Part shown: positions 3,001-9,000 of the stretch, piece by piece
Numbering within the stretch: position 1 is the stretch's first letter
How the letters are laid out: each line of letters starts with the position of its first letter
Assembly (NCBI RefSeq): GCF_030013595.1
Contig: NZ_CP122769.1
Strand: one strand, 5' to 3'
DNA: 64,000 bases
From: Escherichia coli
Lineage (GTDB): Bacteria; Pseudomonadota; Gammaproteobacteria; Enterobacterales; Enterobacteriaceae
Program-made: the position numbers

Positions 3001-6000
3001 GCCACCCCGTAAATAACTGCGGTTTGCCGCTTAGTGTCACCATGGTAGGAGTACCTTGCAGCGGGATTGTTGAGGCCACCTGGAAATGCGATTTGATAAT
3101 GTTTAAGCAAGCCTCATCAGGACGTCCTTCCGGGATAGTTGAAACCGGATTCATCGCTGCATCCAGAGCTTCGTTTGGCTTTGCTGAACACCAGATTTTG
3201 GCCATGTTCCCGGCTACTACCGAGTTCAGTCCTGCACGTGGGAATGCAAGAAACTTAATCGAAATACCGGCATCAAGATAAGACTTCAGATCATGATGCA
3301 GTTTTTGGCAGTATCCACAGGTTATATCGGTAAAGATAGCAAGCCGGTATTTTTCGTTTGGTGATTTGTAGTCGATGGATTTTGTTTTGGATGCGAATTC
3401 CCGGACGCCCATTAAAATGGCCTGCTCAGTGGTGTTTACCACATCTTTACCTTTCACGTGGAATAAGCTTCCGGTAAAAATGTAATCTCCGTCTTTGCTC
3501 ACGTAACTTACCCCCTCCCTGGAAATCACCGTAAAAATATCTTTTACTGGCGAGGGTTCGACGTGCTCGATTGAAAGCCCAATGGCTTTGAGCTTATCCC
3601 GGGCTGCATCTGGCAGTACCATTGTATTAACCGGCTCGGCATTCATCGTGAAGGCGGTACTTAATGAAAGAAGTAATACCGATGCCTTAATAATTTTTTT
3701 CATTTATGCTCCTTGAATCGAGCACTAATATTATCACGCCCAAAAATTCCAGAATTTTGCTTAAACGCTTAAATCAACGGGTAAAGCCGAAAGAAAGTCG
3801 ATAGATATATGGGAGAATAGATAAAACGTAGATTCAGTGGAGAAATCGTTGTGTTTACACCACCAGCAGATGATGTGAAACCTATTCCCGTTCCTGATGA
3901 GATTTACACTCAGTGCATTACGGATGCCGCCCGCTTCTTCGGAATTGATGCCGAACTGGTTTTTACGTTGTTTGACAATGAAGGCGGTAAGGTTGGTACT
4001 TTCAGCAGGAATACTAACGGCACTTATGATATTGGCCCGATGCAGATCAACTCATCCAATCTGCCTGAAATAAAAAAGCATTTCCCGACTGTAACGTGGC
4101 GGGTTCTGGCTTACGATGCTTGCGCTAGTTTCTGGGTTGGAACATGGTGGCTCTACAGAAAAATTGTTGATCGCAAGGGCAATGTGTTTGAAGGGATTGC
4201 AGATTACAACAGCAAAACCCCAAAGGTACGTGCAAAGTACATATTTAACTTCATGGTAAAGTACAATCGCCGGATCCAGCAGCGTAACGGGATGGGTGAG
4301 CTTTATCAATGGACCCAACAACCTCCTCGATACAATGGCCATATAGCTAAAAATGTCCCGGAGCAAAACCCGACTCCTGTTGTTAAATAAATTCAACCTG
4401 ATATTACAGAAGATCATCGAGTAGCTTGGGTACCCCCCCGCAAAAAATTCGCATAGACTCAGGGGTAATAAATTGTCTTTTTCTGCAAGAAATATATTTA
4501 AGATTCTCTCTTCTTTCTTGATGCAGAAAAGCCCTCTTCATGAAGAAGTATGTGTTCCTGAAGAAACAACAGCTGGTTTATGGGGCCCTCTCCCTGATTC
4601 GCATGTCGTGCTTTTCTTAGATTTCGATGGGGTTTGTCACAGGTGCAAAAATGAAACCTTTGAGCGAATGCCATTGGTGGAAAAATTACTGGATAAATGC
4701 CCTTCCATGGTGATTGTCATCTCCAGTTCGTGGCGTGAATGTGCCAGTATAACTTACCTGAAATCTCTTTTCCGGCTACCTTATAGAGACAAAGTCATAG
4801 GTGCTACCGATTCGGTATATTTAAAACCTAATCAGTCAGGTGTGCGGGCTGCTGAGTGTGAGGACTTTGTATTTTCACATCGAGTTAAAGCATTTATCTG
4901 CCTTGATGACGACGAATCATTATTCCCGGTCGGTTATCCACATTTGCAAAAAACCAATTATTACACCGGCCTCACCGAATCTGATCTTGCAGCTCTTAAC
5001 ACCAGGTATCATCTGCTTATGAAACGTTGGGCTTCCTGAATTAAAGTAACTTTTACGGAGAGCATGCCCGCATTATCAGTTCTATGCTTCTCCATTTCTG
5101 CCCCGGGTCAAAGCATTGCACAGTTGGAAGAAAACATGCCGGTCTCTTAAGCTTGCTGCTCAGTTTGGTTCCGGTGCTGAAAAACCTGCCAACGGTGCTT
5201 TAGGAATTCAGTATTGATGGGTTTACGCAGCGGCTTAATAAACTCTCCTTGATATGCCGCTAAATCATGATCTACCGCCAAAGCTTCAGCGAGAATGTTA
5301 ACCTCCAACGTCACCGGATGAATGGCAATCATGTTTGCGTCGAAAAGATCGTGTATATCATGGCGTAAGAGCAACCCATTTGTATAATGGTCTACTCCTC
5401 CGTTACGATGCTCCATCAGATGAGCAGCCTCAGTGCGCTGGCGCAGTCTAGAGCCTGTAATCACACATTGGTCATAACAGTTGTTGCGGACGGCTTCTGC
5501 AAATGAGGCCTGATCTGGTCGTGTCTCGACAGTTGTCTTACTACCCTTACGCTTACCCGGTACAGTAGTTTCATCAGGAATATTCGGCTGAAGCTCCTTT
5601 TCTTCTATACCATCAGTCTTCATAGCGACCATAATCGCGGCCGGTGGAGATTTAGGCTGATCTTCCTGCGATCTTTCGCGGCCACCAACTGGATACCCTA
5701 GAAAACCCTCAATGATCTCTAGTGGAGGTAATGTAGCGTTTGAACGTGCATAAATAGCGAACTCTGCGGCACGTCCGCCGGGAATATATCTACGTACCAG
5801 TATTGGAAGAGAGGCTTCTTCATCTGGTTCCTCTTTTTCCGACAGGATTATTCGTTCGGTGAGACGGGCTGAATTTTTTTTCATTTCACTCAACAGTCTA
5901 TTGCGTTCTTTTACCTTTCGGTCATTATCCTCCAACATCTTACGATGACTAACCTTAGCCAGATGGTCTTCCAGTTCCTGTATATATTCGGGATCGATAG

Positions 6001-9000
6001 TGTCAATTAGACCGAACGCCATCAACCGCTCCCCCCTTGTTTTACAAGATTCTAGCCGAACGCGAATGTACTCCTTACGCTTGGCCATCAAATGTTCTTT
6101 TTGTTTTTTTTCTCGAATTACACGGAGCTGAGTATTGTAATTAGAATAAACGGTTTCGCTATTCTGCTCTGTCTCTAGAGCAAATTTTTGTAGGTGTTCA
6201 CGTAGTTTTTTACGGGTATTTTTGGGGGCATGCATTACGGTACGCTCAATGTATGAGCCTGTGCAGCGTAAAGAAAGTACAGTTTCAGCATGGGAATAAC
6301 CAGCATTGAGACGATAGCGGGCAATTTTAAGCAAATTATTAAAGTGTGCACCATTACATATACCTAGTTCTTCCAAGACACGACGTTCTCTATCATTAAT
6401 AGATGGATGGTTAATATCTTTTACTTTGTTTGCCATGTCCTGTGTCTCAGTGCCTATTCAGCCGGAACATCTACTACATAAAGAACGAGATTGTACAGAA
6501 ATCAGCTAAGTTTATGAATAAAAAAGGCCGCAAATTTATACTTTGCGGCCTTCACTGTTTAACACCATATTTTAGTAAATACGTTTAATTTTCATTAGGT
6601 TATATTTGAAACTCACCTACCTTTTATTTTCATTAAGCCACTGATCCGCTTTATCGACACGTGACTGGTAAGGCTCATTTGTGTTGCTCAGCTCTGACTT
6701 CATGTACTGAATGAATTCATCTGCTTTCTGAGGCCCAAAGCGTGGGTCATCCGTCAATTGCTGCCGGATAGCCCTTTCAGAGTTCTGCGCTGCATTCGCA
6801 TAAGTCGAAACGCCGTCGCTGCTAATACTCTGATACCGGTCACTTACAGCTGCGACGCCATCAGACATCTGCATGTGATTAAGGACTTTACCCTGGAGAG
6901 AATCAGGCATATTTGCAGGGTTAGAGGCATCATTTGCTATCGATGTCTGGGTTTGAAGGATGCCCGCTCCCGTAAGCATCTCATTTACCGGTTTCGCCCC
7001 AACGCTGGTTAGCGTATCCGAAACAAATTGCTGGCCCCCGAGTAGCGCACCAGAAATCGCGCCCCGCTCAGTGTTGGCCTCTATCTTTTCCCCAACCAAG
7101 CGATCTGTGACGGTCTGAGTGCGGTTACCAACGAGACCACCGCCCGACCCACCCTCTCCTAGGTTTGCCCGTACGACTGACTCAAGTGAACCATCAGCTC
7201 TGTTATGAGTGTTGAAACTGCTATGGATGCTCTGAACGTCATTCATACTCCAGTTAACGTTATAGTTACCCAGTTCATTAAGGATCTTCTGGGTATCCGC
7301 TTTGAGCTGCTCTCTTTCGGCACCGGTAGCCATGGTGCTGGCACCATAGGTAAAGACAGCTTGCTGTGCCAATTCAGCTCGCTTATCGTCCCGGCTTAAG
7401 TTCGGGTTGTTGGCAACACGACTAAAGTAGTTATCAGTGTTATTAGATAAGCCACGAACTTGACCGCTCTGATACATACTGTTCAAAGCAGTGGCTCGTT
7501 GATCCATTCCATCACCAACCACCCGACCTCCGGTAGCCTTTTCCAGATCGTTAAATGTGCCTTCTGCATTTCTGACATCCTGACCTGAATTGACGACTTT
7601 CTCTACACCCTGATTATTCAGTACAGGGCCATTCGTTTTGAGAGAATTGAGCACATTCCTTTCTTCATCAGAATAAGTGCGGCCCACGTTGTTGTTATGT
7701 ATTCCCTGAATATCGCCTTTGCCCGCGTTATCAAGGTTATACGGAGTAAAGCCAGCTTCACTTTTTCCAGGGACACGCTGAGTCGCGTCCTGAGCGTTGG
7801 AGGAAAGACCGAGTTTAGCCTGCGAATCAACACTTCCACCCAGTTCCCCTACGCGTGACGCACTCATCACGCCAGACGTATTTACGCTGTCAGGAGTTCT
7901 ATCCTGTGCCTGAGTGATAGTATTAATTCCTGACCCTTCGCCTGAAATTCTGTCGAGCTGATTGGTGATAGGTAGCAGCTGCTGTGCATTACCACCGAAG
8001 TCGGAAACCAGACTTTTAAGCAGGCTGGAGGTTTCACGGAGATCCTGTTTATTACTTTCGGCCGTCTCTCCCCGGGCGGTATCAATCGCAATTTTTTGCT
8101 CACTGAAATCTCGTGTTGCAGCCACAAGCGCGTCAGTACGTTGAAGCTGCGAACCAAGCTGATTACTGGCCTTGAAGGTATCGTTATAGGAGTTAAATTT
8201 CTCCATAAACGCATTCTCATCCAGCCCATTCTTACGAGCAAAATTCCTTACATCATCATCACTGAAGTTTTTGTTGCGAATAGAATCGGAGAACCTGTCC
8301 AGGTTAATGCTTTGTTTAGAATCAAGGCTCATTCCACTATTGGAGCTGGCGTTAGTCGATACCGATGTAGAAATGTTTTGCGCCATCGTCTGTGTCGCCT
8401 GGTTCATTTTCGACGATGCTTCTTTAAACGCATTAGTATTGGATATCTGATCGCTGCTTACCTGAGACGCCGCTTTACTGAACTGGTCAGTCAAAGCAGA
8501 ATCCTGGCTAAGCTGATTCGTGATTGCTTTTGAAAGGTCATTTGAAAGCGAGTCACTGCCTGTATTGGTCTTAGATGCGCCGCTACTCAATTGCCCTGCT
8601 ACAGCTGCTTTCAGCCCGGCTCCGTTGCCAGTTCCAGCACCTCCATTAAGCCCAGCGTTTAGAATAACATTTGAAGCAATGCTGGCCATCTGAGACGCAC
8701 TCACCCCATGTTTCGTTGCAATACCTTCTGCTACAGAGGCACCAATCTTATCCGAGATCTGCTTCATTGTTTGCAGGTTGGTTGAGAACTGCTGGCTCGA
8801 CTGTCCTGACCTTCCAATTTCACTCATCTGACTGTAACCAGCCTGGAATGAATTACTTGCCGCACTCATAACTGATGAGGTTACAGCTGATCCTTGCCCC
8901 TGGCTGTTAGCGATACTTGAACCAGCATTCCACATTCCAAGACGGAAATTACTTGAATCAACTGCGCCGCCATCGCTGTATCCCTGACCGGTACTGGTCA

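What the first reader, a model, noticed from the sequence alone, without database searches (positions are those of the whole stretch)
5147..6436. HNH-domain protein immediately downstream of traG, with a second HNH nuclease in the accessory region
A 429 aa protein with a C-terminal HNH motif lies directly after the traF-H-G operon, separated from it by a clear terminator (6514-6552), so it is independently transcribed. A second, classical CxxC-HNH-CxxC endonuclease (188 aa, 47154-47720) sits in a small-gene operon. Neither has an adjacent methyltransferase; they may be stand-alone nucleases, homing endonuclease remnants, or defence effectors.
Basis: partly seen in the sequence, partly recalled or inferred. 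Interest (0 to 1): 0.4.

Follow-up and report, generated by a model that had tools for sequence, protein, structure and literature searches.

The report
Swappable nuclease cassette beside IncHI2 trhG
The 429-aa gene after the conjugation gene trhG is a real, probably active, uncharacterised DNA-cutting enzyme that sits in a swappable slot of one lineage of large IncHI2 resistance plasmids, and it most likely serves conflict between mobile elements rather than conjugation.

Summary
Window 5147-6436 (-) encodes a 429-aa protein with a C-terminal HNH_2 (PF13391) nuclease domain whose catalytic His/Asn/His are invariant. A 12-bp-stem terminator separates it from trhG and a promoter-like site follows.

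The window is an IncHI2 plasmid (pSTM6-275-like). The gene is not backbone. It fills a variable slot between trhG and a HAD gene.
- About 520 plasmids carry this cassette.
- 433 carry an unrelated HNH (PF01844) plus YrhA-family cassette on the opposite strand.
- The one IncHI1 plasmid examined has an empty slot.

Backbone identity between the two IncHI2 lineages is 98-100% but drops to about 90% next to the slot. The N-terminal ~250 aa are an orphan helical/coiled-coil region: no Pfam or PDB match, and 8 representatives among 1.84 billion proteins. In a sister allele this part has been swapped by recombination. Full-length relatives lie in chromosomal islands beside type I R-M, Gabija-like and KAP-NTPase genes. 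IS elements have disrupted the gene or its promoter region at least four times.

Best reading: an accessory mobile-element conflict or defence nuclease. A selfish homing-type nuclease is the main rival.

The second HNH (47154-47720) is unrelated. It belongs to a widespread, highly conserved family on plasmids and in phage-annotated sequences. Function of both is untested. Interest is moderate.

The parts
5147..6436 (-). ORF of the 429-aa protein: orphan N-terminal region, linker, HNH_2 nuclease
   Evidence: ORF list; identical gene annotated in more than 500 IncHI2 plasmids; Pfam HNH_2.
6122..6436 (-). aa 1-105: compact four-helix N-terminal domain (helices 15-23, 32-44, 49-57, 60-68) leading into a long helix
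5858..6223 (-). aa 72-193: two long helices (72-130, 149-193), a coiled-coil-like region
   Evidence: AF2 secondary structure of the full-length model.
5687..5824 (-). aa 205-250: small three-helix module with the best-conserved motif of the N-terminal half (L..LVRRYIPGG.A.EF...AR....PL.IIE.FLG)
   Evidence: Alignment A1: F226 and F245 are invariant even in members whose N-termini otherwise differ. pLDDT 73-89.
5510..5680 (-). aa 253-309: low-complexity, poorly conserved linker predicted disordered
   Evidence: pLDDT 33-42; 4-35% identity among homologues.
5150..5557 (-). aa 294-429: extended HNH_2 nuclease module (KR.G...RPDQ..F...V..NC...C.ITG....R.EAAHL...GG.DHYTNGL.LR.DIH.LFD...) plus a conserved C-terminal extension
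   Evidence: Pfam hit on residues 324-373. Invariant columns include R306-Q309, C320, C324, T327, G328, H339, D349, N353, G354, H362, F365, D366 and W416.
5351..5422 (-). codons of the predicted catalytic and metal-binding residues H339 (5420-5422), N353 (5378-5380) and H362 (5351-5353)
   Evidence: Invariant in alignments A1 and A4. The role assignment follows general knowledge of the His-Me finger and is an inference.
6490..6518 (-). promoter-like site TTCATA-17-TACAAT, 54 nt upstream of the ATG
   Evidence: Consensus scan, 9 of 12 matches. ISKpn26 is inserted inside it (6506-6510) in pMCR1-51133.
6514..6553 (-). intrinsic terminator of trhG (stem 6553-6523 plus T tract)
   Evidence: and sequence. 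It is conserved in IncHI2 lineage B, so it belongs to the backbone and marks the right edge of the cassette.
5030..6519 (.). the variable cassette: the segment with no homology to IncHI2 lineage B
   Evidence: BLAST breakpoints at 5029 and 6520. Lineage B has a 1728-bp HNH(PF01844)+YrhA cassette here. IncHI1 p1147-MDR has only a 246-bp spacer.
5043..5053 (.). copy of the IncHI dispersed palindrome AAAGTAACTTT, 4 nt after the HAD stop codon at the left edge of the cassette
   Evidence: It is conserved at this position in lineage B and in IncHI1.
4473..5039 (+). left flanking backbone gene, HAD_SAK_2 domain protein, convergent with the HNH gene
   Evidence: Pfam E = 7e-20. Its 3' half lies in the zone of raised divergence.
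6617..10570 (-). right flanking backbone gene trhG (TraG_N, 1317 aa)
47154..47720 (-). second, unrelated HNH protein (188 aa from GTG; RefSeq start gives 177 aa, 47154-47687) with CxxC...HADH...N...CxxCN

Best explanation
The 429-aa protein is an accessory, independently transcribed, stand-alone nuclease carried as cargo in a hypervariable slot of the IncHI2 backbone. It most likely acts in conflict between mobile elements or against phages, and not in conjugation. Proposed mechanism: the C-terminal module is a restriction-enzyme-type HNH_2 His-Me-finger nuclease and cuts DNA. The orphan N-terminal helical domain, the coiled-coil region and the small three-helix module provide oligomerisation and target or trigger recognition. 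This part exchanges between alleles by recombination while the nuclease module is kept. The host and the plasmid are spared because the target (a foreign DNA sequence, a modification or an invader-derived signal) is absent from them, since no immunity gene or methylase is adjacent. What is shown: the gene structure, intact catalytic residues, terminator and promoter-like context, cassette status, the diversity peak, domain swapping, genomic associations and dispensability. What is inferred: nuclease activity, the role of the N-terminal region, and a defence or competition phenotype.
For: 1. The HNH_2 domain scores well above the Pfam threshold and H339/N353/H362 are invariant. PF13391 group 6 holds restriction endonucleases such as HphI, BbrI and AlwI, and putative modification-dependent enzymes (PMC5714182).
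2. The gene is not backbone. The slot is empty in IncHI1 p1147-MDR and holds an unrelated HNH+YrhA cassette in 433 other IncHI2 plasmids.
3. The slot shows a local diversity peak. Lineage A against lineage B is 98-100% identical over 27 kb but about 91% and 88% identical in the 800 nt and 250 nt flanking the slot. A third lineage (L007) shows the same gradient.
4. The alleles are mosaic. Against L007 the nuclease part has dS 0.29, like the backbone (0.17-0.49), while the N-terminal part has saturated dS and 51% amino-acid identity. The same N-terminal region is also fused to other HNH_2 subtypes (P0049, P0050).
5. Full-length relatives sit in chromosomal islands or on other mobile elements. 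Neighbours include type I R-M plus a NERD-helicase, type I R-M plus a helicase-PLD protein plus another HNH_2, a KAP NTPase plus an OLD-TOPRIM/UvrD (Gabija-like) pair, and a type I-F CRISPR-Cas locus.
6. The gene is dispensable. IS5 and an IS3-family element are inserted in the ORF, ISKpn26 in the promoter-like site and ISVsa5 in the terminator. Two truncated fragments (P0052, P0053) also exist in public data.
Against: No experiment exists. No literature on this gene was found. No known defence model fits: the best PADLOC hit is a weak domain-level match, E = 1.7e-5. The N-terminal region has no recognisable modified-DNA reader or DNA-binding fold, so target recognition is pure inference. The AF2 model is poor over the catalytic core, pLDDT 26-44 for residues 332-357. 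Proximity to defence genes holds for only some contexts. Others are a phage-like contig and small integrative islands. Near-100% identity across about 520 plasmids reflects recent clonal spread and is not evidence of selection.
Confidence: 0.45

Rival explanations
1. It is a selfish, free-standing homing-type endonuclease. The nuclease cleaves IncHI2-type plasmids that lack this cassette, at or near the trhG-HAD junction. Recombinational repair from the cassette-bearing plasmid then copies the cassette and some flanking DNA into the cut plasmid.
For: The cassette shows presence, absence and replacement at one precise intergenic site between conserved genes, with the same breakpoints in both IncHI2 lineages. 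It has its own promoter-like site. The steep identity gradient in both flanks resembles co-conversion tracts. The rival cassette in the same slot is also an HNH nuclease. IncHI2 plasmids carry several further HNH genes.
Against: HNH_2 is a restriction-type rather than a typical homing-type family. No NUMOD or IENR-type DNA-binding module was detected. The family is almost absent from phages: 8 weak hits to the C-terminal part only. Relatives occur in many unrelated contexts next to defence genes rather than at homologous sites. Incompatible IncHI2 plasmids rarely coexist long enough for homing; this last point is an inference.
Confidence: 0.2
2. It is an accessory factor of IncHI2 conjugation or plasmid DNA processing, placed beside the Tra1 genes because it acts on transferred DNA in the donor or the recipient.
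For: It lies immediately downstream of trhF-trhH-trhG on the same strand, about 9 kb from mobI and the MobH relaxase region.
Against: A strong terminator separates it from trhG. It is absent from the IncHI1 plasmid examined and from 433 IncHI2 plasmids whose Tra1 genes are 98-100% identical at the nucleotide level and which are typed as conjugative. It is disrupted by IS elements in plasmids still typed as conjugative, although that typing is a prediction only. Relatives lie in non-conjugative contexts.
Confidence: 0.07
3. It is a toxin or addiction module, or a silenced and functionally decaying passenger. Either the nuclease is held in check by an unidentified antitoxin or by H-NS silencing, or it has no current function.
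For: IS elements have inactivated it repeatedly. The N-terminal coding part is AT-richer, 42% GC against 48% for trhG. In three relatives a conserved ~90-aa ORF lies directly upstream and could be a partner. The lineage-B cassette has a nuclease followed by a small gene, a toxin-immunity-like layout.
Against: No partner ORF exists in the window; only 180 nt separate the gene from trhG. The ORF is intact with invariant catalytic residues across homologues of 36-90% identity. The ~90-aa ORF is absent or unrelated in the other contexts and is not related to the N-terminal domain.
Confidence: 0.1

Closest known systems
HNH_2 (PF13391, COG3440-type) restriction endonucleases: HphI, BbrI and AlwI, and SRA- or SBD-fused type IV enzymes of the McrA kind (His-Me finger group 6 of Jablonska et al. 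2017, PMC5714182)
   Same: The C-terminal nuclease module is the same: R..Q..F...V...C...C.(I/V)TG.....EAAH(L/I)...NGL.L..D.H.LFD, with catalytic His/Asn/His. The architecture is also the same: a variable N-terminal recognition part followed by a C-terminal HNH_2. There is no adjacent methylase, as in type IV enzymes.
   Different: The N-terminal 250 aa are all-helical with a coiled-coil-like region and match no known reader or recognition domain (SRA, SBD, BpuJI-like). NCBIfam PT-DNA_restrict scores 16.5 bits against a cutoff of 180. There is an extra conserved C-terminal extension (aa 374-429). Specificity is unknown.
Free-standing HNH homing endonucleases of phages (T4 MobA-E, I-HmuI-like; His-Me finger groups 1 and 2 in PMC5714182)
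   Same: An intergenic, independently transcribed HNH gene that is present in some and absent from other otherwise collinear genomes. Flanking sequence divergence is raised around the insertion.
   Different: A different HNH subfamily. No NUMOD/IENR modules. The host is a plasmid. The family is nearly absent from phage genomes. Relatives are scattered in defence-type islands.
The alternative IncHI2 cassette: HNH (PF01844, 353 aa) plus YrhA-family protein (NF038335), as in pFJMB80062_1
   Same: It occupies exactly the same slot between the HAD gene and the trhG terminator, in 433 plasmids. It also encodes an HNH nuclease of unknown role.
   Different: An unrelated sequence family on the opposite strand, with two genes (nuclease plus a small downstream protein), which suggests a nuclease-partner pair.
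The ~140-aa HNH family of Enterobacterales mobile elements (relevant to the second gene, 47154-47720)
   Same: The 188-aa protein shares 56-64% identity over the core with family members. One lies in an IncF tra operon between trbC and traN. Others come from phage-annotated metagenome sequences or from chromosomal contigs. All Zn-ligand and catalytic residues are conserved.
   Different: The IncHI version has an extra ~45-aa N-terminal extension. It sits in a long array of small genes that also includes an orphan methylase and a DndC/PAPS-reductase-like protein.

Membership tests
HNH_2 / His-Me finger nuclease (PF13391) | Profile match above the curated threshold | tested here: met
   41.2 bits against a cutoff of 21, E = 1.5e-10, residues 324-373, covering the full profile 1-66.
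HNH_2 / His-Me finger nuclease (PF13391) | Catalytic His (AAH), Asn (NGL) and metal-binding His (D.H..FD) retained | tested here: met
   H339, N353 and H362 are invariant in 15- and 11-sequence alignments.
HNH_2 / His-Me finger nuclease (PF13391) | Beta-beta-alpha-metal fold | tested here: inconclusive
   The AF2 model has pLDDT 26-44 over residues 332-357 from a shallow 15-sequence alignment. A profile search of PDB sequences found nothing.
HNH_2 / His-Me finger nuclease (PF13391) | Metal-dependent DNA cleavage | not testable with these tools
   Needs a biochemical assay.
Type IV (modification-dependent) restriction enzymes of the SRA/SBD-HNH kind | Recognisable modified-DNA reader domain N-terminal to the nuclease | tested here: not met
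   No Pfam hit in aa 1-252 for any of 9 family members. No PDB or BFVD fold match. PT-DNA_restrict scores 16.5 bits against 180, through the HNH part only.
Type IV (modification-dependent) restriction enzymes of the SRA/SBD-HNH kind | Stand-alone, without a cognate methyltransferase | tested here: met
   The neighbours are trhG and a HAD gene. The nearest methylase is about 48 kb away in the window.
Type IV (modification-dependent) restriction enzymes of the SRA/SBD-HNH kind | Cleaves modified but not unmodified DNA | not testable with these tools
   Needs assays on DNA carrying 5mC, 5hmC, glucosyl-hmC, 6mA, phosphorothioate or deazaguanine modifications.
Free-standing homing endonuclease | Presence/absence polymorphism at a fixed intergenic site between conserved genes | tested here: met
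   The slot is empty in IncHI1 p1147-MDR, holds cassette A in about 520 plasmids and cassette B in 433, with the same breakpoints.
Free-standing homing endonuclease | Homing-type DNA-binding modules (NUMOD/IENR) or membership of a typical homing family | tested here: not met
   Only HNH_2 was detected. There are 8 weak hits to the C-terminal part among 50,697 phage records.
Free-standing homing endonuclease | Cleaves the cassette-less allele and is copied into it | not testable with these tools
   Flank divergence gradients are compatible with this but not specific to it.
Known anti-phage defence systems (PADLOC-DB v2) | Significant match to a system component, with the system's partner genes present | tested here: not met
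   Only a domain-level hit to model PDLC04132 'HNH', E = 1.7e-5, 22 bits. No partner genes.
Toxin-immunity or toxin-antitoxin pair | Adjacent cognate immunity or antitoxin gene | tested here: not met
   There are 180 nt upstream and 107 nt downstream without an ORF. The ~90-aa upstream ORF of some relatives is absent here.
IncHI conjugation backbone (Tra1 region) | Conserved across IncHI plasmids and co-transcribed with tra genes | tested here: not met
   Absent from IncHI1 p1147-MDR and from IncHI2 lineage B. A terminator precedes it. It is disrupted by IS elements in natural plasmids.
Classical zinc-ribbon HNH (PF01844), for the second gene 47154-47720 | Profile match, plus CxxC...CxxC zinc ligands and H/N/N catalytic residues | tested here: met
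   22.2 bits against a cutoff of 21.4, a marginal and partial match. C65, C68, H78, D80, H81, N120, C125, C128 and N129 are invariant in 10 sequences of 50-78% identity.

The most novel reading that the evidence does not exclude
The trhG-HAD slot is a plasmid-versus-plasmid conflict locus. Alternative nuclease cassettes (HNH_2 with a swappable orphan recognition region, or HNH plus YrhA) let one IncHI2 lineage attack or home into rival IncHI2-type plasmids that enter the same cell. Homing or allelic warfare between incompatible conjugative plasmids would then explain the diversity peak and co-conversion-like flanks.
Probability: 0.12. Interest if true: 0.7.

Novelty: new variant of a known kind. 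Interest (0 to 1): 0.38.

Why it matters
IncHI2 plasmids are major carriers of mcr-1, carbapenemase and heavy-metal resistance genes in E. coli, Salmonella and Enterobacter. About half of the IncHI2 plasmids in the collection carry this nuclease and the other half carry a different one at the same site. If these cassettes restrict phages or rival plasmids, they would help decide which plasmid lineages can co-exist or displace each other, and in which hosts. The orphan N-terminal region would be a new recognition or sensor module for an HNH effector. If the gene is only a selfish passenger, the finding is of local interest: a marker that separates IncHI2 lineages and a tolerated insertion region. 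An mcr-1 transposon has been reported between a DsbC gene and an HNH endonuclease gene in an IncHI2 plasmid, PMC5748712.

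Tried and rejected
2. A profile search with the N-terminal region over 1.84 billion representatives returned only the family itself, 8 proteins. No remote relatives could inform function.
3. The ~90-aa upstream ORF seen in three relatives was tested as a possible partner or paralogue of the N-terminal domain. It is absent from the window, unrelated in two other contexts, and hhalign gives probability 0.1%.
4. A paralogue inside the window was sought and none found. The extra HNH_2 paralogues of IncHI2 lie elsewhere on the plasmid, near hns.
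5. Literature searches (IncHI2 + HNH, PF13391, YrhA + immunity, IncHI2 + defence systems, pSTM6-275, trbC/traN/HNH, motif strings) found no functional study of either gene.
6. A role in conjugation was rejected on distribution and IS disruptions.
7. 'Homing endonuclease remnant' was rejected for both genes, because both ORFs are intact with conserved active sites.

Full report
**Identity of the window and check of the observation**

The region around the finding is 100% identical to hundreds of IncHI2 plasmids of E. coli, Salmonella and Enterobacter, for example pSTM6-275. ORF 5147-6436 (-) encodes 429 aa. Upstream on the same strand lie the IncHI Tra1 genes:
- trhF (TraF/thioredoxin, 348 aa)
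- trhH (TraH)
- trhG (TraG_N, 1317 aa, 6617-10570)

Between the trhG stop codon and the ATG there are 180 nt. They hold a strong intrinsic terminator: a 12-bp stem at 6553-6523 followed by a T tract. Directly after it comes a sigma-70-like TTCATA-17-TACAAT at 6518-6490, and an AGGA lies 4 nt before the ATG. Pfam HNH_2 (PF13391) matches residues 324-373, E = 1.5e-10. Independent transcription is plausible but rests on consensus matches only.

**The nuclease module**

Fifteen homologues of 28-90% identity share a ~135-aa C-terminal module: KR.G...RPDQ..F...V..NC...C.ITG....R.EAAHL.EH..GG.DHYTNGL.LR.DIH.LFD, followed by a conserved extension ending in RW..F. H339, N353 and H362 are invariant, as are C320/C324 and D349.

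This is the COG3440-type HNH_2 domain. The systematic His-Me-finger classification places PF13391 group 6 with the restriction endonucleases HphI, BbrI and AlwI and with putative modification-dependent enzymes (PMC5714182).

The AF2 model is poor over the catalytic core (pLDDT 26-44 for residues 332-357, from a shallow alignment). The fold is therefore supported by sequence only.

The full-length model gives four regions:
- a compact four-helix domain, aa 10-70
- two very long helices, 72-130 and 149-193
- a small three-helix module, 205-250, carrying the best-conserved motif of the N-terminal half
- a disordered linker, 253-309

A profile of this region searched against 1.84 billion representative proteins found eight proteins. 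All have the same architecture or are fragments of it. The N-terminal region is thus an orphan found only in Enterobacterales sequences. In two relatives (P0049, P0050) it is fused to different HNH_2 subtypes, which shows modularity.

**The gene is a cassette in a variable slot, not backbone**

The space between the HAD-domain gene (4473-5039, +) and the trhG terminator has three states.
- In IncHI1 p1147-MDR it is an empty 246-bp spacer.
- In about 520 IncHI2 plasmids it holds this gene.
- In 433 other IncHI2 plasmids, mostly Enterobacter (for example pFJMB80062_1), it holds an unrelated 1728-bp cassette on the opposite strand. That cassette encodes a 353-aa PF01844 HNH protein and a 168-aa YrhA-family protein.

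Homology between the two IncHI2 lineages stops at window 5029 and resumes at 6520. The trhG terminator is therefore backbone, and the promoter-like site belongs to the cassette.

**A diversity peak centred on the slot**

Over 27 kb the two IncHI2 lineages are 98-100% identical. Identity falls to 95.6%, then 90.8%, in the last ~1 kb on the HAD side. It is 87.6% in the first 250 nt on the trhG side.

A third, more distant lineage (metagenomic contig L007) is syntenic and carries an allele of the same gene with 57% identity (60% in the pairwise codon alignment). It shows the same gradient. Its identity to the window falls from about 95% a few kb away to 78-87% next to the slot.

Codon analysis against L007 shows that the nuclease part has dS 0.29, within the range of the flanking backbone genes (0.17-0.49). 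The N-terminal part has saturated dS (1.6 or more) and 51% amino-acid identity. The N-terminal part was therefore replaced by recombination with a much more distant allele.

The pattern points to one of three histories:
- an old polymorphism maintained at this locus
- repeated import of cassettes by recombination through the flanks
- homing with co-conversion

It does not distinguish between them.

**Where relatives live**

Full-length relatives of 36-42% identity occur in several contexts:
- In Salmonella islands, divergently transcribed from type I R-M operons. Neighbours are a NERD-helicase, or a helicase-PLD protein plus another HNH_2 gene.
- On an Enterobacter contig, followed by an 86-aa ORF and a KAP NTPase, a few kb from an OLD-TOPRIM/UvrD (Gabija-like) pair.
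- In a small integrase-bounded island in Pectobacterium.
- In an integrative element next to a type I-F CRISPR-Cas locus.
- On a phage-like contig.

Among 50,697 phage records, only 8 weak hits to the C-terminal part were found. IncHI2 plasmids also carry further HNH_2 paralogues with other N-termini near hns, outside the window.

**Dispensability**

Natural lineage-A plasmids carry IS insertions at four positions:
- IS5 at 5696-5701, inside the ORF; at least ten Salmonella plasmids, probably one event
- an IS3-family element at 5673-5676, inside the ORF
- ISKpn26 at 6506-6510, inside the promoter-like element
- ISVsa5 at 6539-6547, in the terminator

Two further truncated fragments (P0052, P0053) exist in public data. 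All these plasmids are still typed as conjugative, although that typing is a prediction and not an assay. Together with its absence from p1147-MDR and from lineage B, this argues against a role in transfer or maintenance.

**Interpretation**

The best-supported reading (confidence about 0.45) is an accessory nuclease for conflict between mobile elements or for defence. It would combine a restriction-type HNH_2 effector with an exchangeable, orphan recognition or oligomerisation region. It would need no immunity partner because its target is absent from host and plasmid.

The main rival (about 0.2) is a selfish homing-type nuclease. That reading explains the site-specific polymorphism, the flank gradients and the fact that the competing cassette is also an HNH nuclease. 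It fits poorly with the family type, the lack of homing-type DNA-binding modules, the rarity in phages and the scattered contexts next to defence genes.

A conjugation accessory role (about 0.07) and a toxin or decaying passenger (about 0.1) are less likely. Nuclease activity, specificity and any phenotype are untested. I found no publication on this gene. One mcr-1 study notes an 'HNH endonuclease' next to an mcr-1 transposon inserted near DsbC in an IncHI2 plasmid, and speculates about homing (PMC5748712).

**The second HNH (47154-47720, -)**

This gene is unrelated to the first. It is a zinc-ribbon PF01844-type HNH with invariant C65/C68, H78/D80/H81, N120 and C125/C128/N129. Its distribution is wide:
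- It matches 2706 plasmid records: both IncHI2 lineages (97-100% identity), IncHI1 pHCM1 (79%), large conjugative Klebsiella plasmids (~61%; replicon type not checked), and an IncF plasmid in which a ~140-aa version sits inside the tra operon between trbC and traN.
- It matches 958 protein clusters, some from phage-annotated metagenome sequences and some from chromosomal contigs.

It is thus a widespread, strongly conserved mobile-element HNH without an assigned role. In the window it lies in a long same-strand array of small genes. That array also contains a DUF6012 gene, a 794-aa DndC/PAPS-reductase-like protein and, 6.6 kb away, an orphan N6/N4 methylase with an Mrr_N domain. 'No adjacent methyltransferase' is correct.

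**Novelty and score**

The nuclease domain is a known kind, and the gene is already annotated generically. Four points are new here: its cassette status with a mutually exclusive alternative, the diversity peak in an otherwise near-identical backbone, the orphan and swappable N-terminal region, and the association of relatives with defence loci. I rate it a new variant of a known kind, with interest about 0.38. It would rise to about 0.7 if plasmid-versus-plasmid homing or competition were demonstrated.

Noticed in passing
window 485, 2049, 2950, 5043, 11955, 14574, 15015, 15410, 18833, 20271, 22001, 26903, 34492, 34618, 43741, 45948, 48679, 53728, 57940, 62108, 63143: A dispersed 11-13-bp palindrome, (A)AAAGTNACTTT(T), occurs at 21 sites in 64 kb: 43 strand matches at up to 1 mismatch against 1.8 expected, and 0 of 100 shuffles reach that number. 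Several of the sites I placed by hand against the pSTM6-275 annotation fall in short gaps between genes or just after a stop codon (after the umuC, DsbA, DsbC, HAD and trhF genes). Two lie in the region upstream of mobI, which may contain oriT. The motif is found in both IncHI2 lineages, in the divergent L007 plasmid and in IncHI1; its position after the HAD stop codon is conserved in all of these. It is absent from 14 loci fetched from other elements. It may be the operator of an IncHI global regulator or another protein-binding punctuation site. No description was found in the searchable literature.
   Followed up: partly
L010:2855-4432 (IncHI2 lineage B, pFJMB80062_1); equivalent to window slot 5030-6519: The alternative cassette encodes a 353-aa protein with a PF01844 HNH motif near its C-terminus. 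A 168-aa YrhA-family (NF038335) protein follows 10 nt downstream. This layout looks like a nuclease with a partner or immunity protein. It is present in 433 plasmids and was not characterised further.
   Followed up: partly
window 48796-51180 (-): A 794-aa protein has an N-terminal PP-loop/PAPS-reductase domain most similar to DndC and PRK06850-type proteins (E = 1e-37 and 6e-34, far below the family cutoffs) and a ~430-aa C-terminal extension of unknown function. It stands alone, without the other dnd genes, in the same small-gene array as the 188-aa HNH.
   Followed up: partly
window 54364-55614 (-): An orphan DNA methyltransferase (N6_N4_Mtase) carries an N-terminal Mrr_N domain and has no adjacent restriction gene. 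It lies in the small-gene accessory array and is typical of plasmid anti-restriction or establishment regions.
   Followed up: no
L008:5759-9405 (pEB247, outside the window): IncHI2 plasmids carry two further HNH_2 paralogues (271 and 285 aa) close to the plasmid hns gene. Each follows a small ORF, one with a CxxC motif. Including the genes described above, these plasmids encode four or five HNH nucleases.
   Followed up: partly
window 4250-5029 and 6520-6770: The 3' half of the HAD_SAK_2 gene and the last ~50 codons of trhG are much more divergent between IncHI2 lineages (88-91%) than the rest of the backbone (98-100%). Against L007 the HAD protein is only 85% identical, while neighbouring proteins are 94-98.5% identical.
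   Followed up: yes
L003:9725-9997, L005:9716-9991, L024:7723-7998: In three relatives a conserved ~90-aa ORF (39-44% identity) ends 3-10 nt before the HNH_2 gene. Its function is unknown and it has no Pfam match. It is absent from the IncHI2 cassette and unrelated to the N-terminal domain.
   Followed up: yes
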